Origin: an uncultured Actinomycetes bacterium
GTDB lineage: Bacteria; Actinomycetota; Acidimicrobiia; IMCC26256; BP-133
Reading direction: 5' to 3'
DNA length: 24,000 bases
Assembly: GCA_963789165.1 (NCBI GenBank)
Contig: CAWBJP010000001.1
Location: 272,096 to 296,095 of the forward strand
The position numbers and the translations under genes are program-made. The notes beneath the pieces are model-generated. The model was not told where the DNA came from and did not search any database. It saw nothing but the letters and a program-made list of their open reading frames with translations. This document shows positions 1-16,431 of the stretch, piece by piece; position 1 is the first letter of the stretch; every line of letters begins with the position of its first letter.

Positions 1-460
1 TTTGTACCAGTTGGCCGAGGCCGCTGGTACCGGGAACCTCGACTTCGTCGTGGTCTGCGCCCGGGCGCCCCATGGCATGGTCTGTCTCAACTCGGCGCTC
101 GCCTACTGGGATCTGAGCGACGAGATCCCGCCCGCAGTGCACCTGGCCGTACCGGACGGATCGCACCGGCCCGCCATCGACCACCCACCGGCGAGGATCC
201 ACGTCTTCCGGGCCTCGACCTTCAACCTCGGGCGACTGGAGGTGACGCTCGAGCGAGGCGAGCAGTTCTGGATCACCGATCGCGAGCGAACCGTCGTCGA
301 CGCCTTCAGGCTGCGCCATCTCATCGGGGAGGATCTCGCCCACGACGCGCTCCGCCGCTACCTCCGCTCCCGACCGAAACCCGCCCGGGTTGCGGAACTG
401 GCCAGGGCCTTGCGGGTCTGGCACCCCGTGGCCGACGCCATCCGGATCCTCTCCGGATGA
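1..460 (+). CDS. abiEi: AbiEi-family antitoxin of a type IV toxin-antitoxin system, 5'-truncated by the window edge
   Basis: The ORF is open to the window start, and the ORF-track TTG at position 2 is probably not the real start. The sequence (...VCLNSALAYWDLSDEIPPAVHLAVP...WITDRERTVVDAFR...) matches my recollection of the AbiEi C-terminal domain. Its stop TGA (458-460) overlaps the ATG (457-459) of the downstream AbiEii-like gene as ATGA, a typical TA coupling. Confidence 0.75.
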   Translation, partial: LYQLAEAAGTGNLDFVVVCARAPHGMVCLNSALAYWDLSDEIPPAVHLAVPDGSHRPAIDHPPARIHVFRASTFNLGRLEVTLERGEQFWITDRERTVVDAFRLRHLIGEDLAHDALRRYLRSRPKPARVAELARALRVWHPVADAIRILSG

Positions 461-1345
461 ACAGGCCGAGCCGGGACACGACCGCCAGACGCGTCTACCT
501 CGACCTCCAGGCCGAGGCTCGGCGCCGCGGCCGGCCAACGGACGAGCTCTTCGTGTTGTACACCCTCGAACGCTTCCTCTTCCGGCTCTCGCTCTCGCCG
601 CTTCGCAGGCAGTTCGTGCTCAAAGGCGGCATGCTCCTCGCCGCTCTCGACGAACGCCGCGCCACGTGACGTCGACCTGCTCGCCCGGGACACCGAGAAC
701 GACATCGACACGACCGCGTCGCTGGTCCGAGAGCTCGCCATCGACGTGGACGACGGCGTCGTCTACGAACCCGCCCGAATGGCGGCCAACGTGATCCGAG
801 ACGAAGATCCCTATACCGGGGTCCGAATCGTGGTGCCGGCGCGCGTCAATCGCGCTGAGCACCCGTTGCGGATCGACGTCAACGTCGGTGATCCCGTGAC
901 ACCGCCCGTCGAAATCGCCTACCCCGCTCTCCTCGGCGAACCGTTCACGATCCTGGTGTACCCGCTCGAAACGGTGCTCGCCGAGAAGATCGTGACGATG
1001 ATCGACCGTGGGGACACCACCACCCGCGAGCGCGACTTCGCCGACGTGGTCGTGCTCATCAAGCGACACGAGATCGACGCGGCGCGTCTCCACCGTGCCA
1101 TCCAAGCAACCGGCGCTCATCGCCACTCCGATCTTCGGCCCCTCGCCGATGTGCTCGTTGTCCTTGCCGCGACCCGCCAAGACGCGTGGGAGCGGTTCGT
1201 CGCACGCAGCGGGCTCGGCGGCGAGGTACCAGCGACCTACGGCGAGGCGATCGCCGCAGTGATCGCCTTCGCCGATCCGCTTCTGAGTGGATCGATCACC
1301 CTCGGGCGTTGGCACCCCTCGGCCGGCGAGTGGAGGGTCAGTTGA
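457..1345 (+). pseudogene. abiEii: AbiEii/AbiGii-family nucleotidyltransferase toxin (DUF1814-like), split by a 1-nt frameshift near 664-668 as assembled
   Basis: The N-terminal piece (457-669, frame 1) ends ...KGGMLLAALDERRAT*. Shifting one frame at that point reads RDVDLLARDTENDIDTTASLVRELAIDVDDGVVYEP..., which runs straight into ORF 746-1345 (frame 2). The join restores the family-typical R-x-T-R-D-[IV]-D-L motif and a protein of about 295 aa. Confidence 0.8.
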
Positions 1346-1435: not shown

Positions 1436-3191
1436 TGTCAAGTCCCGGTACCCGGGCGACAGTTGAGTTCCGGTACCTGCACGACAGGTAGTTTCGGGAG
1501 CTAGGCGACAGTGCGCGGTTTACGGGGCCGGCCTTTCGGGGTGGCGAAGGCGCCGTGTTCCTTGGACCGGTCGTGACGGATGGGATGGACCCGCACGACC
1601 TTGCCGTCGACGGCCGAGCTAGACCGAGCCGGCCACGATGGCGACCTCGACGGGAGCGGCCCCGGTAGGCCCGTTCCCGCCCGGTACGGCGTCCCGGCGA
1701 AGCTCATGTTCCCGCTGCCGTCGGCCTGGCGGATGACCGGCGATCCGACCGTGGCGACCCGCCGGCGACGAACCGCCGGGCCCTGGGGTGACCGCTGTGG
1801 TGCCGGGGTGCCGGGTGGGCGGCGCTGGGCGTGGGAGGCAACCAGCACGCCCCGGTGGGTGATCTCGACGAGGCCGTTGCGGCAGATGGCCTCGACCAGC
1901 TCGCCGGCGAAGAAGCGGCCCACGTGGTAGCGGAACCCGCCCAGGCCGATCCGGCCGGCCTGGTCGACCCAGCGGGTCACACCCCGCAACCCGGCCACGG
2001 CCACCACCGCATCACCAGCACAGCGAACGCGCTGATCCTCGCCGGCTCGACCACGACCAGGTCGGGGCGGGCGAGCGCGAACCGCTCGATGGGCGGGACC
2101 ATGCCGATGCCCTGATGAGGCCGCTTGAGTGTTGTAGTGCTCGACCCACTCGTCGACCGCCGCCTGGGCTTCCTCGATCGTGGCGAACACCCGGCCGGTC
2201 GAGGCACTCGGCCTTGAGCGTCTTGTGGAACCGCTCGACCTTCCCCGTCGTGGTCGGTGACCGGGGCGCGGTCAGCAGATGGCGGATCCCGTTCTCCCGA
2301 CAGATCCGGTCGAAGAGCACCTCCCCGTTCCCCGGCCCGTACTTCCCGGTGAACACCTTCCCGTTGTCAGTCAACACCCCCTCGGGGACCCCGTGGCGGC
2401 GCATGGCCTCGGCGAAGGCGTCGCACACCGGCCGGGCCGTGGCCCGCCGCACCACCTTGGCGCACACACAGAACCGCGAGTTGTCATCCAGGCCGGTCAC
2501 CACCGACGCCTGCGACCCGTCCACCAGGTGCACCCCGCCGGTGATGTCCATCTGCCACAACTCCATCGGCCGGGACCGCTCCCACCGCTTGTAATCCGAC
2601 CGGCGCCGCCTCCTGCGCCTGCGGGTCGATCAGCCCGTGGCGGACCAGACGCCCGATAGATCGACGACCGCCCCGGCAGCCGGTCGACCCCTTCCCGGCC
2701 CAGCTCATAGAGGATCGTCTGCGGCCCCCACGACCCGGATGCTCCCGCCGCAACGAGACCACCCGCGCCTCCACCGCCGGCGCGCATCTGATGCGGACAC
2801 GTCGCCGGCTTCGAGCGAACGGTCCGCCAGGCCCCATGATCCCGTCCCGGGCATAGTCCCGCAGCCAGCCGTGCACCGTCTGGCGCACCACCCCGAACCG
2901 GCGCGCCACCTCCACCACCGACAACCCACCCTCGAGCACCTCAAGCACGGCCCGATGACGCTGATCCACCAGTCCCAACTCCACGAGCACGGCCATGCCT
3001 CCTCGGTCTCCGGGCGCGACAACCCAGAGCCAAAGGAGCGCCAACAACAGCCGAATCAACAACCCCCGGAAGTGGTCAGGCCGACCGTCGCCTAGCAACC
3101 GGACGACTGTCGCCCAGGTACCGGAACCGCGTCCACGAAGTGTCGCCCACCTACCGGAACCACGATGTCCAGCATGAACCGGGCTCGCACA
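1436..3191 (-). mobile_element. IS481-family insertion sequence (about 1.76 kb) with a decayed transposase
   Basis: The termini begin TGTCAAGTCCCGGT (left) and TGTGCGAGCCCGGT (reverse complement of the right end). Subterminal motifs CCGGTAC[CT][CT]GGGCGACAGT are repeated in inverted orientation at both ends (about 1446-1464 and 3116-3135, plus a second degenerate copy at each end). The element encloses a DDE/rve transposase and is flanked by a 14-bp direct repeat. Confidence 0.75.
1501..2996 (-). pseudogene. IS481-family transposase (HTH + rve/DDE integrase core) with multiple frame disruptions
   Basis: Recognisable segments are scattered over all three minus-strand frames. They include MAVLVELGLVDQRHRAVLEVLEGGLSVVEVARRFGVVRQTVHGWL (ATG at 2996), PAVEARVVSLRREHPG, WGPQTILYELGREGV, RPMELWQMDITGG...LTDNGKVFTG...TTGKVERFHKTLK, EWVEHYNTQ/RPHQGIGMVPPIERF, and TRWVDQAGRIGLGGFRYHVG...HPIRHDRSKEHGAF up to the stop at 1501. 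At least six frame switches are needed to join them. Confidence 0.8.
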
Positions 3192-3205
3192 AACCAACGG
3201 AGAAA
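3192..3205. repeat. Right copy of the 14-bp direct repeat AACCAACGGAGAAA (candidate TSD)
   Basis: Identical to 1422-1435 and abuts the right IS terminus. It lies 84 nt from the 3' end of tRNA-Glu. Confidence 0.55.
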
Positions 3206-3288
3206 CTTCTATGGATGTGTGATGGATGGCAAGCCGAAGGGCCACCTCCGAACCCATCGGAAATGGCCCCCCACCTGCACTTTTCTCG

Positions 3289-5148: not shown

Positions 5149-5843
5149 CTACCGGGCGAAGACGACCAGGAACTCGAGCTCGCCGTGGTCCTCGGTGGTC
5201 ACCGGGCCGAAGCTTGGGCTGGGGATGCCCCACTCAGCAAAGACGATGGGGATGGAACCCTGCACGTTGATGTTGGCGCCATCGCGACTGTGCCGTCAGG
5301 TCGACGGTGACGGTCTTCTTTGTGCCGTGCAGGGTCAGCTCGCCGGTGGCCGGCACGGTGATCTGCTTCCCGTCGGCCGGAAGCTCACCGAGGTCGATGG
5401 GCGTGGTCAGGGTGAACGTCGAGGTGGGGTAGGTGGCCACGTTCATGATCCGGCCCCGGAACTGGTTGTCACGGCGGTTCTCGTCGCTCTCCACCGTGGT
5501 CATGTCCACCGTCACGGTGGCCGTCGTGACCTTGGTCCCCTCGATGACCAGCTCGCCGGTCACGTCCTCGGTGCGGCCCGCCGCCTCGGCGTTCCGGCCG
5601 AGGAGCACCTCGTTCACCCGGTACCCGGCCTGGCTGCCGGTGGTCGCCGTCCAGGTGCCCTCCACGCCGGCCGCAGTCGAGGACCCCCCGTCGGTCGACG
5701 ATCGGGGCCGGGTCCCCGGAGCCTTTGAGGGTCAGAGGGGCGGGGGCGTCCTCCTTGATCAGGTCGACGTAGACCCAGGTCCCGCCGAAAGCGAGGACGG
5801 CAGCGAGGGGTACGGCGACGAGGAGCCACTTGAAACGGTGCAT
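5149..5843 (-). pseudogene. YceI-family periplasmic/secreted protein, two frameshifts as assembled (about 5279-5290 and the C6 run at 5684-5689)
   Basis: The N-terminal signal is MHRFKWLLVAVPLAAVLAFGG and the core reads GTWTATTGSQAGYRVNEVLLG...TVESDENRRDNQFRGRIMNVATYPTSTF. The C-terminus is recovered in a third frame: GANINVQGSIPIVFAEWGIPSPSFGPVTTEDHGELEFLVVFAR*. RBS GGAAAGG lies 7 nt upstream of the ATG. Confidence 0.8.
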
Positions 5844-5994: not shown

Positions 5995-6585
5995 CTAGGA
6001 GCCGGGCTTCCGTTCGCTGAAGCGTTCGACATGGGCGAGCTTCATGGCCGCGGCGTCGAAGATCTGGACGGCCCGGGCCTCGCTTCCCTTGACCTCGGCG
6101 CTGAGCCGCACGGAGTCGCCCTGCTTCAGGTTGTCGATGCCGTCGCGCCCGGCGGTGACCACGGTGGCTTCGTCCACCGAGTAGGTGCGCTTGTAACCGT
6201 CCTCGCTCTCCAGCGTGATCGACGTGGGGCTGACCGAGACGACCTTCCCCAGTTGCGTGGCGGTCGTCTGGTACTTGCCCTCGGGGTTCTCGAAGGTGAC
6301 CTCGGAATGGATGCCCCCGGGGTCGAAGCCGCCGAACCCGAAGCCGAAGCCACCGGGCCTGCGCACCCGGAACACGGCGTCCGCACCGGGGCCGGGGAAC
6401 GGCATCCCGGGAGGGCCGGCGAAGAAGGGCGGCGGCACCGGGACGGCCTCCTCGGCGGGAACGGCCTTCTGCTCCTCGGCGCCGGCGATGCCGAGACCCC
6501 CGGCGACGAGACCCACGGCGAGTGCGGCGAGCGCGATCCCGGGGCGGAACCACCGGGACCCGGGCGGTGAATGGTGGGTATCCAT
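5995..6585 (-). CDS. Hypothetical membrane-anchored/secreted protein (196 aa)
   Basis: ATG at 6585 has RBS GGAAAGGA upstream. The N-terminal hydrophobic segment is WFRPGIALAALAVGLVAGGLGIAG, followed by a Pro/Gly-rich linker (PPFFAGPPGMPFPGPG...GGFGFGFGGFDPGG) and a beta-rich C-terminal domain. The longer 277-aa ORF-track version adds an R/P-rich N-terminus that looks non-coding. Confidence 0.7.
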   Translation of the reverse strand: MDTHHSPPGSRWFRPGIALAALAVGLVAGGLGIAGAEEQKAVPAEEAVPVPPPFFAGPPGMPFPGPGADAVFRVRRPGGFGFGFGGFDPGGIHSEVTFENPEGKYQTTATQLGKVVSVSPTSITLESEDGYKRTYSVDEATVVTAGRDGIDNLKQGDSVRLSAEVKGSEARAVQIFDAAAMKLAHVERFSERKPGS

Positions 6586-6593
6586 GGTGTCCT

Positions 6594-6620
6594 TTCCGGG
6601 CCCGTGCTTCGGGCCCGGAA
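6594..6620 (-). promoter_or_regulatory. Perfect 11-bp-stem hairpin overlapping the Shine-Dalgarno region of the 5995-6585 gene
   Basis: The hairpin is TTCCGGGCCCG-TGCTT-CGGGCCCGGAA. On the minus-strand transcript its 3' arm ends in ...CCCGGAA, continuing AGGACACC-ATG, so part of the GGAAAGGA SD is inside the stem. It could equally be the terminator of bldC, whose stop is about 100 nt upstream. Confidence 0.4.
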
Positions 6621-6719
6621 CGAACATCTCGCACCCAGCTGATAACAGGCTGTGGACAACCTGAGAAGCCGCGAACCGGACACGCGGGGTTCGGGGTGTC
6701 CCCGGAAGTGGGGCGCGCT

Positions 6720-6992
6720 TCAGGCGCCGAGCCGTTGCTCCTCGAGGTAGCGGAGGATCTCGGCGGCGTTGAAACGCCGGTGCCCGCCCAGGGTGCGGAT
6801 GGCGGAGATCTTCCCGGCCTTGGCCCACCGGGTGACCGTCTTGGGGTTGACCCGGAACAGTTCGGCCACTTCGGTAGGGGTGAGGAGGTCGTTGGGGTCG
6901 GTGCGGGGCTGCTGCACGGCGGTCCTTTCCTGGTCTGCCTCACTCGGGGGGACAGAGGGGACAGCCCGGGCGGTGACGGGCATTTCTCTCAT
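6720..6992 (-). CDS. bldC: BldC-like small MerR/excisionase-type DNA-binding regulator
   Basis: LLTPTEVAELFRVNPKTVTRWAKAGKISAIRTLGGHRRFNAAEI is nearly identical to the Streptomyces BldC core as I recall it (...FRVDPKTVTRWAKAGKL..IRTLGGHRRY...). The start is uncertain: TTG at 7001, or ATG at 6992 or 6983. Confidence 0.8.
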   Translation of the reverse strand: MREMPVTARAVPSVPPSEADQERTAVQQPRTDPNDLLTPTEVAELFRVNPKTVTRWAKAGKISAIRTLGGHRRFNAAEILRYLEEQRLGA

Positions 6993-7049
6993 AACGGACA
7001 ACGCACGAGTGACCCGGCTATGACGCCTGGCCGGCGGACAGTCGGGACC

Positions 7050-10149
<3,100 letters not shown>

Positions 10150-10163
<14 letters not shown>

Positions 10164-11124
10164 GCCACCGCACCCGCCGCTCCACCTCGCGCCGCACCGC
10201 CCGGTCGGCCACCGCGGCCGCCGCCCGCCGGCGCACCTCCCCGTCGTCCTCGGCCGGCACCTCCCGGGACAGCACCCGGGTCACCCGCCAGCCCTCGGCC
10301 ATCCGGGCCGGTCCGAGCGCGTCGCCGGCCCGCGCCCCGATGAGGGCCGGGCGCAACTCGGGTTCGAAGTCACACAGATGGGCCCGCCGCCGCCCCGGGG
10401 CAGCCCGGGCCGGGGTGTCCCCGGAGAAGAGTACGGCGGAGAAGTCCCCGTCCTCCCGCAGGCACAGCAACGCCTCGCGGGCGGTCGCCTCCTCGGGAAA
10501 CGACACCCACTCCAGGTCGAGGTCGATCCAGTCGAGGCGGCGGGCCACCACCTCCTCGGCGATGACCCGATCCGTGGCCGCCGCTCGCCGAAAGGCGACG
10601 TAGGCGGCTTCGAGCACCTCCCAACGGTCGCCGGCCCCCGGCGGGCGGGTGGGGACATGACCGGGCTCCGCACCGGCGGCTTCGGTCCGGGCGGCGGCGG
10701 CCGCGGCCCGATCAGCCACGGCCGCGGCGAAGGTCGAGTAGAGGCCGGAGCAGATGCCGGTGGCCCACAGCCGCGACGCCTCCTCCGCGTCCGCCGTCGG
10801 CCCCGCCCGCAGTTCGGGGTGGCGCTCCCGGGCCACGGTCCGACGGATGTGGTCCATCCAGGCGGAGACGGAGAGACGGCGCCCGGCCAGCCAGCGCTCT
10901 GTGTCCTCGGCTGAGATCAGGCGGTGCCGCCGGCGGAAGGCAGCCGCCGCCGCCCGCACCTCCTCGTCGCGCTGTCCCTCCGGCGCGGGGACGAGCGCCA
11001 GCGCCGCGACGCCCTCACGGACCTCACGAACATGGTCGCTCCACGCCTCCTGGCGGCGGCCCCAGTCGAGCACGTCCCCCCAGGTGTAGTCGGTGGAGGC
11101 GACGCGGAAGACGACGTCGTCCAA
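10150..11124 (-). CDS. Hypothetical 324-aa cytoplasmic protein with a degenerate parvulin (PpiC)-like C-terminal region; candidate peptide maturation/chaperone partner
   Basis: High-GC3 ORF with no signal peptide. The C-terminal stretch EEATAREALLCLREDGDFSAVLFSGDT...CDFEPELRPALIGARAGDALGPARMAEGWRVTRVLSRE follows the parvulin pattern (G-D-F..., then 'xG(D/E)xxGPxxxxxGWxxxxV') by eye. It is translationally coupled to the PCAT. The start is uncertain: TTG at 11124 lies 15 nt from AGGAG, and a GTG 17 codons downstream is an alternative. Confidence 0.65.
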
Positions 11125-11142
11125 GCGCCGGGTGACCCGCTC

Positions 11143-11295
11143 CTAGCCCGATCCGCCCTTGCCGCCCTGGCCCGTGGGGTCGGCGTCGTCGGCGGCGGCG
11201 CCCCCCTTGATGTTCTCGGCGTCGGACGGCTCCGGCTCGAGGTCCTCGAGCTCGTCGACGTCGTCGGTCGGCCCGGCGGCGCGGATGTCGTTCAT
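11143..11295 (-). CDS. 50-aa precursor micro-peptide with an acidic double-glycine-type leader: MNDIRAAGPTDDVDELEDLEPEPSDAENIKGG | AAADDADPTGQGGKGGSG
   Basis: ATG at 11295 is preceded by GCGAGGGG with a 5-nt spacer. In the C-terminal 18 codons, 17 of 18 third positions are G/C, which fixes the frame across the G6 run. ...SDAENIKGG resembles the LSxxELxxIxGG leader end cleaved by C39 peptidases. It is the first gene of the operon that ends with a catalytically intact C39-ABC exporter. Confidence 0.65.
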   Translation of the reverse strand: MNDIRAAGPTDDVDELEDLEPEPSDAENIKGGAAADDADPTGQGGKGGSG

Positions 11296-11400
11296 GTCGG
11301 CCCCTCGCTCTCTCCTATGCACCCCGCCGGCAGCGCCGTTGGGGATGCCCGCATGGTATGGCCAGGATGCGACAGCGTCGATGCTCCCTTGAGCGCTGCA

Positions 11401-11424
11401 TGTGTCACGGTGCCGACACACCGT
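11401..11424. promoter_or_regulatory. Overlapping palindromes TGTGTC-ACGGTGCC-GACACA (11401-11420) and CACGGTG-N5-CACCGTG (11406-11424); candidate operator
   Basis: The site lies 106 nt upstream of the peptide ATG (minus strand) and 41 nt upstream of the ATG at 11461 that I reconstruct as the native cyclase start (plus strand). It shares the TGTGTS-N8-GACACA architecture with 3774-3793. Confidence 0.4.
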
Positions 11425-11483
11425 GGCCGGGCCGGCCGCACGGGCTACCGTCACCAGACGATGACCTTCAATCGAGCCGCAAG

Positions 11484-11503
11484 CCCACGGGTTCAGCCGT
11501 GGG
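11484..11503 (+). other. IS200/IS605 left-end subterminal hairpin
   Basis: The hairpin is CCCACGG-GTTCAG-CCGTGGG, extended by outer arms CGAGCC (11473-11478) / GGCTCG (11508-11513) around an internal loop. Confidence 0.65.
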
Positions 11504-11566
11504 TCAAGGCTCGGTCGGGGCTAGGCCCCGGAGGTAGTTGTCGTACCCGCGGTCCAGAATGGGCCT

Positions 11567-11956
11567 GTGGAGTATCGGTCGATGAACAAGACGGTGTACT
11601 CGACGAAGTACCACCTGATCTGGTGCCCGAAGTACCGCCGCCGCGTACTGGCCGGCAGGGTCGAGGAGCGCCTGAAGGAGATCCTCGCCGAGGTTGCCGG
11701 TGAGGTCGGGGCGGAGATCATCGAGGTGGAAGTGATGCCCGACCATGTGCACCTGCTCGTTGAGGTGCCCCCGGCGGTGGCGCGGTCCCGGTTCGTGCAG
11801 TTGGAGGGACGGTCGGCCCGGCTGCTGCGCCAGGAGTTCCCCCCGCTGCGCCGCCTGGGGTGTTTGTGGAGCCCGTCGTGGTTCGTCTCCACCGTCGGTG
11901 GAGCGCCGCTCGAGGTGGTCCGCCGCTACGTCGAGAACCAGAAGCGGGTGGCGTAG
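11567..11956 (+). CDS. tnpA: IS200/IS605-family Y1 (HUH) transposase TnpA
   Basis: YSTKYHLIWCPKYRRRVL, HUH motif MPDHVHLLV, and the catalytic Tyr context RRYVENQ. Length is about 125-129 aa. The real start may be the ATG at 11582 (MNKTVY...). Confidence 0.9.
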   Translation: MEYRSMNKTVYSTKYHLIWCPKYRRRVLAGRVEERLKEILAEVAGEVGAEIIEVEVMPDHVHLLVEVPPAVARSRFVQLEGRSARLLRQEFPPLRRLGCLWSPSWFVSTVGGAPLEVVRRYVENQKRVA

Positions 11957-11959
11957 CTC

Positions 11960-13144
11960 GTGGCCTTCCGTTACCGCCTTTACCCCACCCCGGCCCAGGC
12001 GGGGGGTTGCGAGCGGCACTGCGGCGACGCCCGCTACGTATGGAACCTGGCCCTGGAGCAGGCGAACTACTACCGGCCCGGGCATCCCACGCCCGGGAGC
12101 ACCGAACGGTTCCGCCAGCTCGCCGAGGCCCGGAAGGGCTCCTGGCTCGGCGAGGGGTCGTCGTCGGTGCAACAGCAGGCCCTGCGCGACTTCGACCAGG
12201 CGCTGCGGAACTGGTGGGCCGGCACGCATCGCCGGCCCAGGTGGCGCAAACAGGGAATCGACGAGGGATTCTGCCTCCGCGACGTCAAGGTGCAGAAGAT
12301 CTCAGGCAAGTGGGCCGAGGTCTACGTACCCAAGGTCGGCCCGGTGCGCTTTCGACTCACCCGCCCCCTCGGCGCGCACGGCATGGCTCGGGTCACCAGG
12401 GACCGGGCCCGGCGCTGGCACATCTCGTTCTCCGCCCCTCAGCCGCCCCTCGAACGCCCCGGCACTGGTTTGGCGGTCGGCGTCGATGTCGGCGTGGCCC
12501 ACACCGTCACCACCAGCGCCGGGAAGCATCTCGACATCCCCGGCCTCCGACCCGGCGAGCAGGCCCGCCTGCTCCGCCTGGAACGCAAGAAGGCCCGGCA
12601 GCGCAAGGGCAGCAACCGGCGTGCGAGAACCAAGCACGCCATCGCCGCCCTCCACGCCCGGGCCGCCGACCGCCGCAAGGACTGGGCCGAGAAGACCTCC
12701 ACCGGCCTCGTCGCCGACTTCGACCTGGTCGTCTTCGAGGCGCTCAGGGTCAAAGACATGCTCCGCTCCGCCCACGGCACCGCCGAGAACCCGGGCCGCA
12801 ACGTCGCCGCCAAAGCCGGGCTCAACCGGAAGATCGCCGCATCGGCCTGGGGGTTCCTCATCCGGCGCACCCAGGAGAAAGCCGCCACGACCGACGACTG
12901 CCAGGTGGTGCTCGTCGACCCTCGGCACACGTCGCAGCGCTGTTCGGCCTGCGACCACGTGGCCCCGGGCAACCGGCCGACCCAGGCAACCTTCCGGTGC
13001 GTGGCCTGCGGCCACGCCGAACACGCCGACATCAACGCGGCCAAGAACATCCTGGCGGCAGGGCTTGCCGCCACTGCGCGTGGAGGGAGGCCCGAAATCG
13101 GGGCGCCCAGCGAAGCGCGAACCACCGGACGGGAGGCGGCATGA
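11960..13144 (+). CDS. tnpB: TnpB (OrfB_IS605 RuvC-like, RNA-guided nuclease family) with a zinc ribbon
   Basis: GTG start. The N-terminus FRYRLYPTPAQ is typical of TnpB. RuvC triad candidates are present: GVDVGV (D), VVFEAL (E), HADINAAKNI (D). The zinc ribbon reads CSACDH...FRCVACGH. There are no frame disruptions. Confidence 0.9.
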   Translation: MAFRYRLYPTPAQAGGCERHCGDARYVWNLALEQANYYRPGHPTPGSTERFRQLAEARKGSWLGEGSSSVQQQALRDFDQALRNWWAGTHRRPRWRKQGIDEGFCLRDVKVQKISGKWAEVYVPKVGPVRFRLTRPLGAHGMARVTRDRARRWHISFSAPQPPLERPGTGLAVGVDVGVAHTVTTSAGKHLDIPGLRPGEQARLLRLERKKARQRKGSNRRARTKHAIAALHARAADRRKDWAEKTSTGLVADFDLVVFEALRVKDMLRSAHGTAENPGRNVAAKAGLNRKIAASAWGFLIRRTQEKAATTDDCQVVLVDPRHTSQRCSACDHVAPGNRPTQATFRCVACGHAEHADINAAKNILAAGLAATARGGRPEIGAPSEARTTGREAA

Positions 13145-16100
13145 ACACGCCCCCCAAAGGAATCCCACGGCTCCAGCCGAGGGAGGAGGTCAAGGAGTCC
13201 GGACTCCATGCCCGGGAAGGGGAGCTCCCCACGGGAGCGGTCACGTTCCTCTTCACCGACATCGAAGGTTCGACCCGCATGGCCGAGCATCTCGGGTCCA
13301 GCTTCGGCGAGCTGCTGGACGCCCACCACCGGTTGCTGGGCGAGGCGGTCGTCTCCCACCGGGGCGTGGTCGTCAACACGCAGGGTGACGCCTTCTTCGC
13401 CGTGTTCCTCGCCGCCGCCGACGCCCTCGCCGCGGCCGTGGCCGCCCAGCGGGCCCTGGCCGCCGAAGCGTGGACGGGCGGCGTGGAGCTGCGGGTGCGC
13501 ATGGGCATGCACAGCGGCGAGGCGGTCCTCGGCGGCGCCGACTACGTGGGCCTGGCCGTCCACCGGGCCGCCCGGGTGGCCGGCCTGGCCTACGGCGGTC
13601 AGGTCCTGGTGTCGGAGGCGACCCGGCGCCGGGCCGATCCGGAGCTGCCCGTCGACGTCAGCTTCACCGATCTCGGTCTGCACCGGCTCAAGGACCTGAC
13701 CGAGCCCGAACGGATCCATCAGCTCGTCCATCCCGACCTGTCCCGCGACTTCCCCGCGCTCCGATCCCTCGACGCCTTCCGCCACAACCTTCCCGTCGCC
13801 GCCACCAGCTTCGTGGGCCGGGAGTCGGAGGTGGCCGCCCTGGCCAAGCACCTGGCCGACGCCCGCTTGGTCACGCTGCTCGGACCGGGCGGTTCGGGCA
13901 AGACCCGCCTCGCTCTCCAAGTGGCGGCGGAACGGGTGGACCAGCACACCGACGGGGTGTGGCTGGCGGAGCTGGCGCCCTGGGGCGATCCGGCGCTCGT
14001 GCCCGCCGCCGTGGCCGCCGTGCTCGCGGCCCGGGAGGAGCCGGGCAAGAGCCTGGTGGAAACTCTGGAGAGCTGGGTGGCGGACCGGGACGTGCTCCTC
14101 GTGCTGGACAACTGCGAGCACGTGGTGGCCGCCGCCGCCGACCTGGCCGGCCGCCTCCTGCGGGCCGGACCGGGAGTGCGGGTACTGGCCACCAGCCGGG
14201 AGGCGCTCGGCCTGGCCGCCGAGCAGGTGGTGACTGTGCCCCCGCTGCGCCTGCCCGATCCGGCGGCGGGGACGTCACCTTCGCTCGAGGCCCTCCTCGA
14301 CTCCGAGGCCGTCCGGCTCTTCGTGGAACGGGCCCGTTCGGCCCGGCCGGACCTGGAGCTGGGCCCCGAACACGCCGCCGCCGTCATCCGCATCTGCACC
14401 CGGCTCGACGGGATCCCCCTGGCCCTGGAGCTGGCCGCCCGCCGGGTCCGGGCGCTGTCCCTCTCCGAACTGGCCGACCGTCTCGACCAGCGTCTCCGCT
14501 TCCTGACCGGCGGGGGCCGGGAGACCGAGGCCCGCCACCAGACCCTGCGCGCCGCCATCGACTGGAGCCACGACCTGCTGGAGGGCGACGAACGCACCCT
14601 CTTCCGGCGCCTGGGGGTGTTCGCCGGCGGCTTCGACCTGGCCGCGGCCGAGACGGTGTGCGCCGGGCCCTACGACACCCTCGACCTGATCGCGGCGCTG
14701 GTCGACAAGTCGCTCGTGGTGGCGTCGGAGGCGGGCGGAGCGACCCGTTACCGGATGCTGGAGACCATCCGGGAGTACGCCCTGGAACGCCTGTCCGAGG
14801 CCCGGGAGGACGACGCCACCCGCCACGCCCACCTGGCCTGGGCGCTGCACGTGGTGGAGCGCGGCGCACCACCCCGCTCCCGGGGCCTGCCCCGGGAATG
14901 GGTGGATCACCTCGATGTGGCGCACGACAACCTGCGGGTGGCCCTCGACCATGCCCAGGAGCACGACCCGGAGGCGGGCCTGCGGCTGGCCGCCGCCCTA
15001 CGGCCCTTCTGGTGGGTGCGGGGCCACTGGCACGAAGGTCGGGTCCGGCTGGAGGCGGCCCTGGCCCGGACCCCGGGCGCGGCCCCCGCCCTCCGGGCCA
15101 AAGGCCTGGTGGGGGCGGCCGACCTGGCCGAGTGGCAGGGAGACCTGGGCCCGGCCACGGCCCTGGCCGAGGAGGCCCGCCAGATCTTCCGCCGGGCGGG
15201 CGACCGGCCCGGCGAAGCGGAGTGCTGCTGGAAGCTGGGCAACGTGGCCTTGATGCGGGGGCGGACGGCCGACGCCCGGGGCCTGCTGGAGGAGGGCGTG
15301 GCCATCTCCCGGGACCTCCCGGCTCGGGAGCATCTGGCGGAGTTGCTCAACGCTCTCGGTTGCCTGTTCCTGGACGAGGGCGACTTCGGCGCCGCCCGCC
15401 ACTGCTGGGAGGAGACCCTGGCCACCGACCCGGCCCTCTCCGACGCCTTCGTCGGCGGCCCCGGCTCCCACGCCCGGTTCAATTTGGCCATGGTCCTCTG
15501 CTTCGAGGGGGCCTACCCCGCGGCCCGGGAACTGGCCCAGGAGAGCCTGGAGCGGGGCCGGGTGCTGGGCGACGCCAGCCTGGCCGCCGGAGCCCGGGGC
15601 CTGCTGGGGGAGATCGCTCTCTACGAAGGCGACTTCGCCGCCAGCCGGTCGCTCCTGGAGGAGAGCCTGGCGCTCCAGCGGCAGCTGGGCGAGGCGACGA
15701 TGGTGGCGGGCACCACGCTGCGCCTCGGCCGCCTGGCGCTGGCCCGCGGCGACCTGGCGGGGGCGCGGACGCTCCTGGAGGACGGGCTGCGCCAGCAGCG
15801 GGAGCTGGACGGCAAGTGGGGTACCGCCTCCGCTCTGCGGGGCCTGGGCGTCGTCGCCCGCCAGGAGCAGCGCTACGGGGAGGCCCGGTCGGCCCTGGAA
15901 GAGAGCCTGGCCCTCTTCCGCGAGATGGGCAGCCGCGACGACGTGATGACCAACCTGGGTGAGCTCGGGGAGCTGGCCCTGGCCGAAGGCGACCTGACCT
16001 CGGCCCGGGCCCTGCTGGAGGACAGCCTGGATCAGAGCCGGGCCCTGGGCGTGCAGCGGGAGACGGCGTGCCGGCTGGAGGCCCTGGGTCGCCTGGCCCT

Positions 16101-16431
16101 GGCCGAGGGTGACCTCGACGGCGCGGCGCGACGGGCTGGCCGACGCCCTGGCCCGGGCCGTCGAGCTCGGAGCCCGGCCCGTCGCCGCGGACGCGGCCGA
16201 AGCCCTGGCCGCGGCGGTCGCCGCCGGCGACGACCTCCAGCGGGCCGCCCGCCTGCTCGGGTCCGCCTCCGGCCTGCGCGAATCCATGGGCGCCGCCACT
16301 CCTGCCGTCGGTACGCGTCGGGCACGACACCACCTGGGCCGCGGTGCAGAAGGGCGCTCGGCCCCGAGGAAGCGGGGCGGGCCGTGGCCGACGGGAGAGG
16401 CTTGGCCCTGGAGGAGCTCGCCGCGCCATGA
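13141..16431 (+). CDS. Class III adenylate/guanylate cyclase domain + STAND P-loop NTPase (NB-ARC-like) + TPR repeats; C-terminal 300 nt needs three +1 frame corrections
   Basis: The cyclase domain has LPTGAVTFLFTDIEGST...NTQGDAFFAVF...GLAVHRAARV...LGLHRLKDL. The P-loop is LLGPGGSGKTRLA and Walker B is VLLVLDNCEH. It also has RLDGIPLALELAA and a long TPR-like array (G(D/E)xxxAxxLLEESLAL...). The ATG at 13141 overlaps the tnpB stop (ATGA). The ORF-track version starting at 11860 is an out-of-frame run-through of tnpB. The tail is read best as frame 1 to about 16125, frame 2 to about 16292, frame 3 to about 16352, then frame 1 to the stop at 16431. Confidence 0.85.
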   Translation: MNTPPKGIPRLQPREEVKESGLHAREGELPTGAVTFLFTDIEGSTRMAEHLGSSFGELLDAHHRLLGEAVVSHRGVVVNTQGDAFFAVFLAAADALAAAVAAQRALAAEAWTGGVELRVRMGMHSGEAVLGGADYVGLAVHRAARVAGLAYGGQVLVSEATRRRADPELPVDVSFTDLGLHRLKDLTEPERIHQLVHPDLSRDFPALRSLDAFRHNLPVAATSFVGRESEVAALAKHLADARLVTLLGPGGSGKTRLALQVAAERVDQHTDGVWLAELAPWGDPALVPAAVAAVLAAREEPGKSLVETLESWVADRDVLLVLDNCEHVVAAAADLAGRLLRAGPGVRVLATSREALGLAAEQVVTVPPLRLPDPAAGTSPSLEALLDSEAVRLFVERARSARPDLELGPEHAAAVIRICTRLDGIPLALELAARRVRALSLSELADRLDQRLRFLTGGGRETEARHQTLRAAIDWSHDLLEGDERTLFRRLGVFAGGFDLAAAETVCAGPYDTLDLIAALVDKSLVVASEAGGATRYRMLETIREYALERLSEAREDDATRHAHLAWALHVVERGAPPRSRGLPREWVDHLDVAHDNLRVALDHAQEHDPEAGLRLAAALRPFWWVRGHWHEGRVRLEAALARTPGAAPALRAKGLVGAADLAEWQGDLGPATALAEEARQIFRRAGDRPGEAECCWKLGNVALMRGRTADARGLLEEGVAISRDLPAREHLAELLNALGCLFLDEGDFGAARHCWEETLATDPALSDAFVGGPGSHARFNLAMVLCFEGAYPAARELAQESLERGRVLGDASLAAGARGLLGEIALYEGDFAASRSLLEESLALQRQLGEATMVAGTTLRLGRLALARGDLAGARTLLEDGLRQQRELDGKWGTASALRGLGVVARQEQRYGEARSALEESLALFREMGSRDDVMTNLGELGELALAEGDLTSARALLEDSLDQSRALGVQRETACRLEALGRLALAEGDLDGAARRAGRRPGPGRRARSPARRRGRGRSPGRGGRRRRRPPAGRPPARVRLRPARIHGRRHSCRRYASGTTPPGPRCRRALGPEEAGRAVADGRGLALEELAAP
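13164..13183 (+). other. IS200/IS605 right-end subterminal hairpin
   Basis: The hairpin CCCACGG-CTCCAG-CCGAGGG has one mismatch and is closely related to the LE hairpin sequence. It lies within the first 15 codons of the cyclase ORF as now assembled. Confidence 0.6.

What the first reader, a model, noticed from the sequence alone, without database searches (positions are those of the whole stretch)
11143..11295. Unusual predicted core peptide: 18 residues, Gly/Ala/Asp-rich, no Cys
Cleavage after IKGG would release AAADDADPTGQGGKGGSG. It is small, net-acidic, has no cysteine or aromatic residue, and has a single Thr, Ser, Pro and Lys. This is unlike lanthipeptide, sactipeptide, class II bacteriocin or pheromone cores I know. 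It contains two further GG dipeptides (QGG|K, KGG|S), so alternative or serial C39 cuts are conceivable. The leader is extremely acidic (DDVDELEDLEPEPSD). The reading frame is supported by GC3 (17 of 18 third positions in the core). This matters because a G6 run sits exactly at the GG cleavage codons (AAG GGG GGC) and this assembly shows homopolymer indels elsewhere.
Basis: partly seen in the sequence, partly recalled or inferred. Interest (0 to 1): 0.7.

Follow-up and report, generated by a model that had tools for sequence, protein, structure and literature searches.

The report
Conserved secreted mini-peptide with dedicated exporter
The 50-codon ORF is a real, conserved gene for a double-glycine leader peptide, whose tiny acidic Gly/Ala/Asp-rich tail is probably cut off and exported by the adjacent cyclic-nucleotide-sensing transporter, aided by a SurA-like helper protein; this gene set is widespread in uncultured soil bacteria and I found no study of it.

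Summary
Window 11295..11143 (- strand) encodes MNDIRAAGPTDDVDELEDLEPEPSDAENIKGG|AAADDADPTGQGGKGGSG, with GC3 of 0.98. The G6 run (11201-11206) is not an assembly error. Two independent metagenome assemblies carry the same AAGGGGGGC and the same frame, and about 24 homologous peptides keep the frame.

The ORF heads a three-gene operon:
- the precursor peptide;
- a 324-aa cytoplasmic SurA/PrsA-like protein, a distant relative of MirC/TIGR04500 that is not a member;
- a 1037-aa transporter with two cNMP-binding domains, an intact C39 peptidase and an ABC exporter.

A class III cyclase-STAND-TPR gene lies divergently upstream. Here an IS200/IS605 element splits it at codon 2.

The helper-plus-transporter pair occurs in 233 species-level genomes and about 2,500 protein clusters. 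It is usually accompanied by small "DLxP...KGG" leader peptides with short, hydrophilic, Cys-free cores. No ATP-grasp, radical-SAM, Lan or YcaO enzyme accompanies it.

Best reading: the peptide is unmodified or minimally modified, is handed by the chaperone to the transporter, and its export is gated by a nucleotide second messenger. It is probably a signal rather than a toxin, but its extracellular function is unknown.

Classification: a new variant of the known double-glycine peptide and PCAT (peptidase-containing ABC transporter) theme.

The parts
11143..11295 (-). Precursor gene: 50 codons plus stop. Leader is 11295-11200 (32 aa, ending IKGG). Predicted core is 11199-11146 (AAADDADPTGQGGKGGSG). 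Stop codon is 11145-11143. The G6 run (C6 on the + strand) is at 11201-11206.
   Evidence: Translation. GC3 0.98. Conserved homologues in the same frame and position.
11296..11460 (-). Conserved 5' region between the divergent cyclase start codon and the precursor gene. It contains the palindrome TGTGTC-N8-GACACA (11420-11401), the invariant GCATCGACGC with a -35-like TCGACG (11381-11376), a 17-nt spacer, a -10-like TACCAT (11358-11353), and the Shine-Dalgarno-like GAGGGG (11306-11301).
   Evidence: Phylogenetic footprint in 7 Acidimicrobiia loci. Reading it as a promoter and operator is inference; the simple sigma-70 scanner reported nothing.
10150..11124 (-). 324-aa cytoplasmic SurA/PrsA-like protein: chaperone module plus a parvulin-like domain. 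It is a distant relative of MirC/TIGR04500. The start codon is TTG, 18 nt after the precursor stop codon.
   Evidence: TIGR04500 scores 29.5 bits against a cutoff of 180. Rotamase_2 E 0.005. AF2 model pLDDT 87.8. Foldseek top hits are SurA, PrsA, PEB4 and Cj1289. SurA by sequence profile at E 1e-4.
7050..10163 (-). 1037-aa transporter: two cNMP-binding domains, a C39 peptidase, six transmembrane helices and an ABC ATPase (a PCAT). Its start overlaps the SurA-like gene by 14 nt.
   Evidence: Pfam domains. Residues 327-1034 align with PCAT1 4ry2 at E 2e-111 and with ComA. Q332, C338, H411 and D427, and FGE...R in both cNMP-binding domains, are conserved in at least 67 of 71 orthologues.
11461..11465 (+). 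Orphaned start (ATGAC) of the divergent cyclase-STAND-TPR gene, cut off from the rest of the gene by the IS element.
   Evidence: Alignment with the uninterrupted loci L088 and L089.
11466..13193 (+). IS200/IS605-family element (tnpA 11567-11956, tnpB 11960-13144) inserted within codon 2 of the cyclase gene.
   Evidence: Pfam Y1_Tnp, OrfB_IS605 and Cas12f1-like_TNB. Junctions.
13194..16431 (+). Body of the class III cyclase / nSTAND1 NTPase / TPR gene. Its reading frame resumes at 13195.
   Evidence: Pfam Guanylate_cyc, nSTAND1, TPR_12 and TPR_MalT. 87% identity in a single frame to the L088 orthologue. The gene is divergently adjacent to the precursor in all Acidimicrobiia loci with enough flank.

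Best explanation
The ORF encodes the precursor of a small secreted peptide and is the first gene of a three-gene operon.

**Shown from sequence**
- It is a genuine, conserved gene with a conserved leader (ELEDLEPEPxDAENxKGG) and a short variable core.
- It is followed by a SurA/PrsA-like protein with no signal peptide.
- Next comes a transporter with an intact C39 peptidase and two canonical cNMP-binding cassettes.

**Inferred**
1. The SurA-like protein binds the unfolded precursor through the Pro-containing leader (DLxP motif). It presents the precursor to the transporter, acting as a chaperone or adaptor rather than an enzyme.
2. The C39 domain cuts after Gly32, and the ABC part exports the 18-mer AAADDADPTGQGGKGGSG (monoisotopic mass 1530.65 Da), unmodified or only lightly modified.
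3. Binding of a cyclic or related nucleotide to the N-terminal tandem cNMP-binding domains gates cleavage and export. In this clade the nucleotide would come from the divergently encoded cyclase-STAND-TPR protein.
4. The product is too small, acidic and non-amphipathic to be a membrane-active bacteriocin. It most likely acts as an extracellular signal or another non-toxic secreted factor.

In this particular genome an IS element has separated the cyclase from its start codon and promoter, so the nucleotide input may be rewired or lost.
For: **Gene reality and frame**
-.

**Operon and synteny**
- The order precursor, SurA-like gene, cNMP-PCAT, with a divergent cyclase, is seen.

**Family-wide linkage**
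- The SurA-like gene is next to a cNMP-PCAT in 82 of 83 loci that carry it (of 88 sources examined).
- An HMM search found 59 'DLxP..KGG' leader peptides in 39 of those loci. The acid-leader clade adds more.

**Active peptidase and nucleotide-binding cassettes**
-.

**Chaperone fold without conserved parvulin histidines**
-.

**Precedent**
- The relative MirC is a non-catalytic partner that co-purifies with its enzyme (PMC13097080).
- HetC is a cNMP-domain PCAT whose cNMP domain is essential (PMC10986499).

**Charge complementarity**
- Leader charge anticorrelates with chaperone charge across loci (Spearman -0.58, p 6e-7). This is not corrected for phylogeny.

**No modifying enzyme**
- None is present in the window and none recurs across loci.
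Against: - There is no experimental evidence for expression, cleavage, export or nucleotide binding.
- The leader departs from the canonical GG-leader pattern. Position -4 is Ile, but -7 is Ala, -12 is Pro and -15 is Asp (by inspection, against textbook knowledge).
- The only studied cNMP-PCAT, HetC, bound ppGpp and not cAMP in vitro.
- The cyclase is linked only in the Acidimicrobiia clade. By inspection it has non-canonical residues (NTQGD instead of K..GD; HRAAR instead of N..AR). Here it is interrupted by an IS element.
- MirC's known role is as partner of a modifying enzyme, not of a transporter.
- The charge correlation may be phylogenetic.
- No receptor or target for the mature peptide is identified.
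Confidence: 0.6

Rival explanations
1. The peptide is a RiPP precursor whose core is modified before export. Candidate modifications are graspetide-type Ser/Thr/Lys-to-Asp ester or amide bridges, or another change. The enzyme would be encoded elsewhere in the genome, or the SurA-like protein itself would act as catalyst or prolyl isomerase.
For: - The SurA-like protein is a distant relative of MirC/TIGR04500, which is required with an ATP-grasp ligase for rosaritide.
- The MirA core (LPRNGAGSSKTIDDIPGGGRPDTDSDF, translated from the synthetic gene) is similarly rich in Gly, Ser, Asp, Thr and Pro, and has no Cys.
- Cores of this clade always contain Asp/Glu plus Ser/Thr/Lys and a conserved (D/E)P.
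- Some related loci carry a HemK-like methyltransferase.
Against: - No ATP-grasp, radical-SAM, Lan, YcaO or other RiPP enzyme is present in the 24-kb window, in the Pfam-annotated neighbourhoods, or among recurrent neighbour clusters of 88 loci.
- The TIGR04500 score is far below its cutoff, and the MirC N-domain is absent.
- No histidine is conserved in the parvulin-like domain.
Confidence: 0.2
2. The locus is a conflict or alarm module. The STAND-TPR cyclase senses an intracellular trigger such as a phage or a foreign protein and makes a cyclic nucleotide. That nucleotide switches on the cNMP-binding transporter, releasing the peptide as an alarm signal or emptying the cell of a factor. The logic resembles Pycsar-type cyclase-plus-effector systems.
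For: - The cyclase is fused to an nSTAND1 NTPase and TPR sensor repeats.
- There are domain-level PADLOC hits: the cyclase to PycC, and the transporter's cNMP domains to Pycsar effector cNMP domains.
- Mobile elements lie nearby.
Against: - The PADLOC hits are weak and generic (PycC 21 bits). No PADLOC model matches the peptide or the SurA-like protein.
- The core system occurs in most phyla without a linked cyclase.
- Flanking genes are syntenic housekeeping-type genes, not a defence island.
Confidence: 0.08
3. The small ORF is not the transporter's cargo. It would be a regulatory upstream ORF, or a cis-acting peptide that only tunes translation of the downstream genes or occupies the peptidase, while the real cargo is encoded elsewhere.
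For: - The ORF lies 18 nt upstream of the SurA-like gene.
- The leader is far more conserved than the core.
- In other phyla the peptide genes sit 6-7 kb away from the SurA-like gene.
Against: - A 'KGG' double-glycine site with a conserved leader is linked to a C39 transporter across several phyla, in variable gene orders. That is the signature of a substrate, not of a positional uORF.
- Many loci carry multiple precursor paralogues.
Confidence: 0.05
4. The ORF is a chance open frame in GC-rich DNA, or its C-terminal part is an artefact of a wrong G-run length.
For: - Long spurious ORFs are common in this 71% GC window.
- At least one other gene, yceI, is frameshifted next to a G6 run.
Against: - GC3 is 0.98.
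- The G6 run and the frame are identical in L088 and L089, and a Logan-derived peptide is 95% identical.
- The ORF is conserved as a protein, with in-frame indels only, in about 24 clusters.
Confidence: 0.02

Closest known systems
Double-glycine leader peptides exported by peptidase-containing ABC transporters (PCATs): PCAT1/CtA, ComA/ComC, LahT, CvaB/colicin V
   Same: - A short N-terminal leader ends in GG.
- The adjacent transporter has a catalytic C39 domain.
- Transporter residues 327-1034 align end to end with PCAT1 (4ry2, E 2e-111) and ComA.
   Different: - The leader is very acidic and contains prolines, with a DLxP motif in place of the usual hydrophobic -7/-12/-15 pattern.
- The core is 14-18 residues, acidic, Gly-rich and non-amphipathic.
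- The transporter has two extra N-terminal cNMP-binding domains.
- A dedicated cytoplasmic SurA-like protein is co-encoded.
- No immunity gene or two-component sensor is present.
MirC (TIGR04500) in the rosaritide graspetide cluster of Micromonospora rosaria (PMC13097080)
   Same: - A SurA-like chaperone-type protein is encoded between a GG-leader precursor and a PCAT.
- The core is Cys-free and rich in Gly, Ser, Asp, Thr and Pro.
- The partner is probably non-catalytic.
   Different: - No ATP-grasp ligase is present here.
- The TIGR04500 score is 29.5 against a cutoff of 180, and only profile positions 109-337 are matched, so the MirC N-domain is missing.
- The MirA leader (IDTIPADGVELADDQLATMLGG) lacks the DLxP..KGG motif.
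HetC of Nostoc PCC 7120 (PMC10986499)
   Same: - The architecture is cNMP-binding domain, C39 peptidase and ABC exporter.
- The cNMP domain is essential for function.
- It is thought to export a small signalling peptide.
   Different: - HetC's substrate is unknown.
- HetC bound ppGpp, not cAMP, in vitro.
- No SurA-like partner or adjacent cyclase is reported for HetC.
- The window protein has two cNMP domains with canonical FGE...R cassettes.
SurA / PrsA / PEB4 / Cj1289 chaperone-parvulin proteins
   Same: - The predicted fold is the same: a helical chaperone module, one parvulin-like domain and a C-terminal helix. The top Foldseek hit is SurA lacking its second parvulin domain (2pv3).
- SurA is also hit by sequence profile at E 1e-4.
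   Different: - The known proteins act outside the cytoplasm (periplasmic or lipoproteins). This one has no signal peptide.
- It is operon-linked to a peptide exporter.
- No histidine is conserved in the parvulin-like domain.
Pycsar-type cyclase plus cNMP-binding effector pairs
   Same: A class III-type cyclase is encoded next to a protein whose activity would be switched by a cNMP-binding domain. PADLOC gives domain-level hits.
   Different: - The hits are weak and generic.
- The 'effector' here is a peptide exporter, not a TIR or pore-forming protein.
- The cyclase is linked only in one clade.

Membership tests
Double-glycine (GG) leader peptide / PCAT substrate | Leader of about 15-35 residues ending in GG, GA or GS immediately before the core | tested here: met
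   The leader is 32 aa and ends IKGG. KGG is invariant in 8 aligned clade members and is shared with 59 peptides from other phyla.
Double-glycine (GG) leader peptide / PCAT substrate | Genetic linkage to an ABC transporter with a catalytically intact C39 domain (Gln/Cys/His/Asp) | tested here: met
   Peptidase_C39 E 1.7e-37. Q332, C338, H411 and D427 are present and conserved in at least 67 of 71 orthologues.
Double-glycine (GG) leader peptide / PCAT substrate | Canonical amphipathic leader with hydrophobic residues at -4, -7, -12 and -15 | tested here: not met
   By inspection, -4 is Ile, -7 is Ala, -12 is Pro and -15 is Asp. Hydrophobic residues sit at -14, -17 and -20, before a PEP break. 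The canonical pattern is from general knowledge of GG leaders.
Double-glycine (GG) leader peptide / PCAT substrate | Demonstrated cleavage after GG and export | not testable with these tools
   Needs biochemistry or mass spectrometry.
TIGR04500 (MirC-type putative peptide maturation protein) | Score at or above the curated cutoff of 180 bits over the full 340-position model | tested here: not met
   29.5 bits with only partial coverage. Relatives score 21-41 bits.
Graspetide biosynthetic cluster | ATP-grasp ligase (for example TIGR04187) encoded with the precursor | tested here: not met
   No ATP-grasp domain is found in any window gene, in the annotated neighbourhoods, or in recurrent neighbour clusters. 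An unlinked ligase cannot be excluded.
Graspetide biosynthetic cluster | Core with Ser/Thr/Lys donors and Asp/Glu acceptors | tested here: met
   The core has 3 Asp and one each of Thr, Ser and Lys. Homologues are similar. This is a matter of composition only.
Lanthipeptide / sactipeptide | Cys in the core and a Lan or radical-SAM enzyme | tested here: not met
   There is no Cys in the core and no such enzyme in the window.
Class II bacteriocin | Cationic or amphipathic or hydrophobic core of at least about 25 aa, plus an immunity gene | tested here: not met
   The core is 18 aa with net charge -2 and GRAVY -0.90. No small membrane immunity gene lies next to it.
NHLP-type bacteriocin exporter TIGR03796 | Score at or above 853.3 bits | tested here: not met
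   510.8 bits.
Catalytic parvulin PPIase | Conserved dual-histidine active-site motif | tested here: not met
   No His column is invariant or nearly invariant among 21 family members. Rotamase_2 scores only 18 bits against a cutoff of 27.
cNMP-binding domain (PF00027) with functional phosphate-binding cassette | FGE...R(T/S)A cassette | tested here: met
   There are two domains, E 5e-45. FGE and Arg are conserved in at least 67 of 71 orthologues. The ligand identity is not testable here.
Pycsar defence system | PycC cyclase plus a cNMP-activated TIR or TM effector | tested here: not met
   Only domain-level hits were found: PycC at 21 bits, and the PycTIR hit is confined to the cNMP domain.

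The most novel reading that the evidence does not exclude
The four genes form a self-contained, post-translationally gated peptide-signalling loop of a kind not yet described. The exported mini-peptide (or an intracellular cue) would be sensed by the TPR domain of the STAND cyclase. The nucleotide made by the cyclase would bind the transporter's tandem cNMP domains and open peptide processing and export, with the SurA-like protein holding the precursor ready. The SurA-like protein, cNMP-PCAT and 'DLxP..KGG' peptide module would then be a major uncharacterised cell-cell communication system of uncultured soil phyla: Acidimicrobiia, Gemmatimonadota, Acidobacteriota and Verrucomicrobiota.
Probability: 0.15. 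Interest if true: 0.8.

Novelty: new variant of a known kind. Interest (0 to 1): 0.6.

Why it matters
- **A new control mode.** Double-glycine peptides and their exporters are best known as bacteriocin and quorum-sensing machinery of cultured Firmicutes and enterobacteria. Here the same chassis is joined to a cytoplasmic SurA-like chaperone and to second-messenger-binding domains. It carries tiny, hydrophilic, sometimes repetitive cargoes that cannot be classical toxins.
- **Scale.** The module is abundant: 233 species-level genomes and about 2,500 clusters at 50% identity. It sits almost entirely in uncultured soil lineages, and the literature I could search does not mention it.
- **A tractable test.** If export is really gated by a nucleotide, this would be a new way of controlling peptide secretion. 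It would also give a direct experimental handle: a three-gene operon and a product of known expected mass.
- **Bearing on known proteins.** It would inform what cNMP-domain exporters such as HetC do, and what MirC-type partner proteins do when no modifying enzyme is present.

Tried and rejected
- **Peptide family searches.** Pfam and NCBIfam scans of the window peptide and six related peptides gave no family.
- **RNA families.** An Rfam scan of 10900-13400 gave no match.
- **Promoters and terminators.** The simple sigma-70 and terminator scanner found no promoter in 6900-11600. The promoter call therefore rests only on conservation.
- **Sigma-54 promoters.** A strict regex upstream of precursor genes in loci with a sigma-54 activator matched 1 of 59, which gives no support.
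- **PADLOC.** Only generic domain hits were found, so a defence-system assignment was rejected.
- **Literature.** Searches for TIGR04500, cNMP-PCAT, SurA-like RiPP chaperones and PteB/EbfG found MirC and HetC but nothing on this module.
- **MirB and MirC sequences.** The sequences in the paper's supplement are truncated, so no direct MirB search of the loci was possible.
- **Exact-sequence look-up.** The window peptide itself is not in the protein collection. Relatives are present, but only as 'hypothetical protein'.
- **Ideas rejected.** A frameshift artefact, a spurious ORF, and a lanthipeptide, sactipeptide or class II bacteriocin identity were all considered and rejected; see the membership table.
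Full report
**1. The observation**

The - strand of window 11295..11143 reads MNDIRAAGPTDDVDELEDLEPEPSDAENIKGGAAADDADPTGQGGKGGSG*.
- The 18 residues after IKGG are A4 D3 G6 plus one each of P, T, Q, K and S. They contain no Cys and no aromatic residue, and they carry two more GG dipeptides.
- The leader has 11 acidic and 2 basic residues.
- GC3 is 0.98 for the whole ORF and 17/18 in the core, against 0.78 and 0.50 at codon positions 1 and 2.
- The G6 run lies in codons 30-32 (AAG GGG GGC), at + strand 11201-11206.

**2. It is a real gene and the frame is right**

I fetched contigs that encode homologues of the downstream 324-aa protein. In every close relative a small ORF sits in the same place, with a nearly invariant leader and a short variable tail.
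- Two independent assemblies, L088 (JGI) and L089 (ENA), carry exactly the same AAGGGGGGC. Both read on in the same frame to AAADDADPTGHGGKGGSS.
- A Logan-derived peptide is 95% identical (AAADDANPMGQGGKGGSG).
- A profile of eight clade members finds 24 peptide clusters. All their length differences are in frame.
- The leader block ELEDLEPEPxDAENxKGG is invariant in the eight.
- The core keeps a looser skeleton: a small residue, then an acidic patch, then (D/E)P, then ...KGG, then 2-4 small residues.
- The GAGGGG Shine-Dalgarno-like element is conserved as well.
- The frameshift worry is therefore refuted for this site.
- The general suspicion about the assembly is still fair. The yceI homologue at 5152-5843 is split over three frames, once next to a G6 run.

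**3. Context in the window**

The ORF is the first gene of an operon on the - strand.
- Eighteen nt downstream starts a 324-aa protein (11124..10150).
- That gene overlaps by 14 nt a 1037-aa protein (10163..7050) with two cNMP_binding domains, Peptidase_C39, ABC_membrane and ABC_tran.
- Divergently upstream, all Acidimicrobiia relatives encode a class III cyclase fused to an nSTAND1 NTPase and TPR repeats.
- In the window this gene is interrupted inside codon 2 by a 1,728-bp IS200/IS605 element: ATGAC | 11466-13193 | GGAGTCC.
- The rest of the cyclase gene is intact and in one frame.
- The 165-nt region between the cyclase ATG and the precursor ATG is untouched by the IS element. Across seven loci it shows a strong footprint:
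  - a palindrome TGTGTC-N8-GACACA;
  - an invariant GCATCGACGC;
  - a TACCAT/TACGAT box 17 nt after TCGACG.
- I read this as an operator plus promoter. That is inference; the consensus scanner reports nothing.
- No other gene of the window has a RiPP-type enzyme domain.

**4. The family is large**

- A degenerate-pattern scan of species-representative genomes found 233 relatives of the 324-aa protein. All 80 that were retrieved are MAGs. The closest, at 69-76% identity, are Acidimicrobiia. The others are Gemmatimonadota, Acidobacteriota, Verrucomicrobiota, Solirubrobacterales, Binatia, Rokubacteria and Nitrospirota.
- A profile search of 1.84 billion cluster representatives gave 2,535 hits at E <= 1e-3 and 910 at E <= 1e-30.
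- I clustered all ORFs of 88 sources:
  - the SurA-like gene is present in 83 sources;
  - a cNMP-PCAT is present in 82;
  - a HlyD-type adaptor is present in 47;
  - a sigma-54 activator is present in 45;
  - no recurrent modifying enzyme appears.
- In the Gram-negative-type loci the peptide genes lie about 6-7 kb downstream. A leader HMM found 59 of them in 39 loci.
- They share (h)hLxDLxPxxDxKGG, followed by short hydrophilic Cys-free cores. Some start xKLxFGE. Others are low-complexity or tandemly repeated.
- The window peptide is the acidic-leader version of the 'DLxP..DAxxxKGG' type.
- None of these peptides matches any Pfam or NCBIfam model.

**5. The 324-aa protein**

- It hits TIGR04500 at only 29.5 bits against a cutoff of 180, and Rotamase_2 below threshold.
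- Its AlphaFold model is confident (pLDDT 87.8).
- Foldseek against the PDB returns SurA, PrsA, PEB4 and Cj1289. The best match is SurA lacking its second parvulin domain.
- A sequence profile also reaches SurA at E 1e-4.
- It has no signal peptide (by inspection), so it acts in the cytoplasm.
- No histidine is conserved in the family, so the parvulin-like domain is probably a binding module rather than an isomerase.
- Its one studied relative, MirC, is a chaperone-like partner that co-purifies with, and is required by, the ATP-grasp ligase of the rosaritide cluster (PMC13097080). That cluster also has a GG-leader precursor and a PCAT.
- Here there is no ligase.
- Across loci the net charge of the leader anticorrelates with that of the SurA-like protein (Spearman -0.58, p 6e-7). 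This fits direct binding, but it is not corrected for phylogeny.

**6. The transporter**

- Residues 327-1034 align end to end with the solved PCAT1 and ComA transporters.
- The C39 oxyanion Gln and the Cys/His/Asp triad are present and conserved in at least 67 of 71 orthologues.
- Both N-terminal cNMP domains keep the FGE...R phosphate-binding cassette.
- The only studied exporter of this architecture is HetC of Nostoc. Its cNMP domain is essential in vivo but bound ppGpp rather than cAMP in vitro (PMC10986499).

**7. How it most likely works**

Shown from sequence:
- the gene is conserved;
- it has a GG leader;
- it is linked to an active C39 transporter with nucleotide-binding cassettes;
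- it is linked to a SurA-fold protein;
- no modifying enzyme is nearby.

Inferred:
- The SurA-like protein captures the precursor through its Pro-containing leader and hands it to the transporter.
- A nucleotide licenses cleavage after Gly32 and export of the 18-mer (1530.65 Da). In this clade the nucleotide would come from the neighbouring cyclase.
- The product acts outside the cell as a signal or another non-toxic factor. It is far too small, acidic and non-amphipathic to be a pore-former.
- In this genome the IS insertion may have uncoupled the cyclase.

I put 0.6 on this overall picture. My confidence is about 0.85 for 'PCAT substrate cut after Gly32', about 0.5 for nucleotide gating, and about 0.3 for a signalling role.

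**8. Rivals**

- **(a) A RiPP with an unlinked or unrecognised modifying activity (0.2).** The MirC kinship and the Asp/Ser/Thr/Lys composition speak for it. MirA's core is compositionally similar. The complete absence of a ligase in 88 loci speaks against it.
- **(b) A STAND-cyclase-driven alarm or defence module (0.08).** Only generic PADLOC domain hits support it.
- **(c) A regulatory uORF or decoy (0.05).**
- **(d) A spurious or frameshifted ORF (0.02).** This is contradicted.

Serial cuts at the inner GG sites remain open. The conservation of a second KGG near the C-terminus is unexplained.

**9. Comparison with what is known**

- It works like a double-glycine peptide and PCAT system, and it meets that family's two structural criteria. 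Its leader is not canonical.
- It is not a member of TIGR04500, of TIGR03796, of any graspetide, lanthipeptide, sactipeptide or class II bacteriocin family, or of Pycsar (see the membership table).
- I therefore class it as a new variant of a known kind.
- The novelty lies in four things: the combination of a cytoplasmic SurA-like partner with no enzyme, tandem cNMP domains with a cyclase next door in this clade, featureless mini-cargoes, and the module's abundance in uncultured soil phyla.
- Six full-text literature searches found no description of it. The searchable library lacks most subscription journals.

**10. Dead ends**

These are listed under 'tried and rejected'. The main ones:
- no Rfam match;
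- no sigma-54 promoter signal;
- truncated MirB and MirC sequences in the supplement.

Noticed in passing
window 11461-13195: An IS200/IS605 element (tnpA plus tnpB) is inserted inside codon 2 of the cyclase-STAND-TPR gene: ATGAC|IS|GGAGTCC. The tnpB stop (TGA, 13142-13144) overlaps an in-frame ATG (13141-13143). From that ATG the cyclase could still be translated, with an 18-residue N-terminal extension.
   Followed up: partly
window 5152-5843 (- strand): The yceI homologue is split over three reading frames relative to the L001 orthologue. One shift lies next to a G6 run (about 5686-5691). It is either a pseudogene or a homopolymer-length error in the assembly.
   Followed up: partly
window 11401-11420 and 11353-11384 (- strand): A palindrome TGTGTC-N8-GACACA, an invariant GCATCGACGC and a TACCAT box are conserved in the divergent cyclase/peptide intergenic region of seven Acidimicrobiia loci. 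They probably form an operator plus promoter. The binding regulator is unknown.
   Followed up: partly
window 457-669 and 1501-3257: Fragments of mobile or defence genes: an AbiEii-like N-terminus, and rve integrase, Mu-transposase C-terminal and HTH pieces in several frames. This looks like a decayed or frameshifted insertion sequence.
   Followed up: no
L064 12494-12811; L087 14593-14793; L085 7179-7847; L055 14648-14956: In Verrucomicrobiota loci the 'KDAKGG' precursors have tandem-repeat, low-complexity cores: GGGGN(R/K)GLS x4, GGGHSAQT x3 and RQQGAT x3. They occur in arrays of up to four paralogues.
   Followed up: no
L052 5899-7392; L075 6255-7436: In two Actinomycetes MAG loci a HemK/PrmC-like methyltransferase gene lies just upstream of the SurA-like gene. 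This may be a modified-peptide variant of the module.
   Followed up: no
window 11146-11166 and homologues P0171-P0196: Most cores of the acid-leader clade keep a second 'KGG' two to four residues before the C-terminus. This mirrors the leader's cleavage motif. The purpose is unknown.
   Followed up: partly
window 5995-7001 (- strand); L001 10221-11907; L003 10231-11999: Downstream of the transporter, three genes are syntenic in several Acidimicrobiia loci: a MerR/HTH_17 gene, a conserved gene for a signal-anchored protein of about 200 aa with no Pfam match, and yceI. Whether they belong to the system is open.
   Followed up: no
window 10630-10660 (SurA-like protein residues about 155-167): The window protein has an 8-residue insertion (GHVPTRPPGA region) relative to its 95%-identical relative P0001. 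The insertion is in a low-confidence loop of the model.
   Followed up: no
L005 1434-3866: One Gram-negative-type locus encodes a cyclase-like domain followed by a transmembrane segment and TPR repeats, a few kb upstream of the module. This hints at an extracytoplasmic sensor version of the cyclase link.
   Followed up: no
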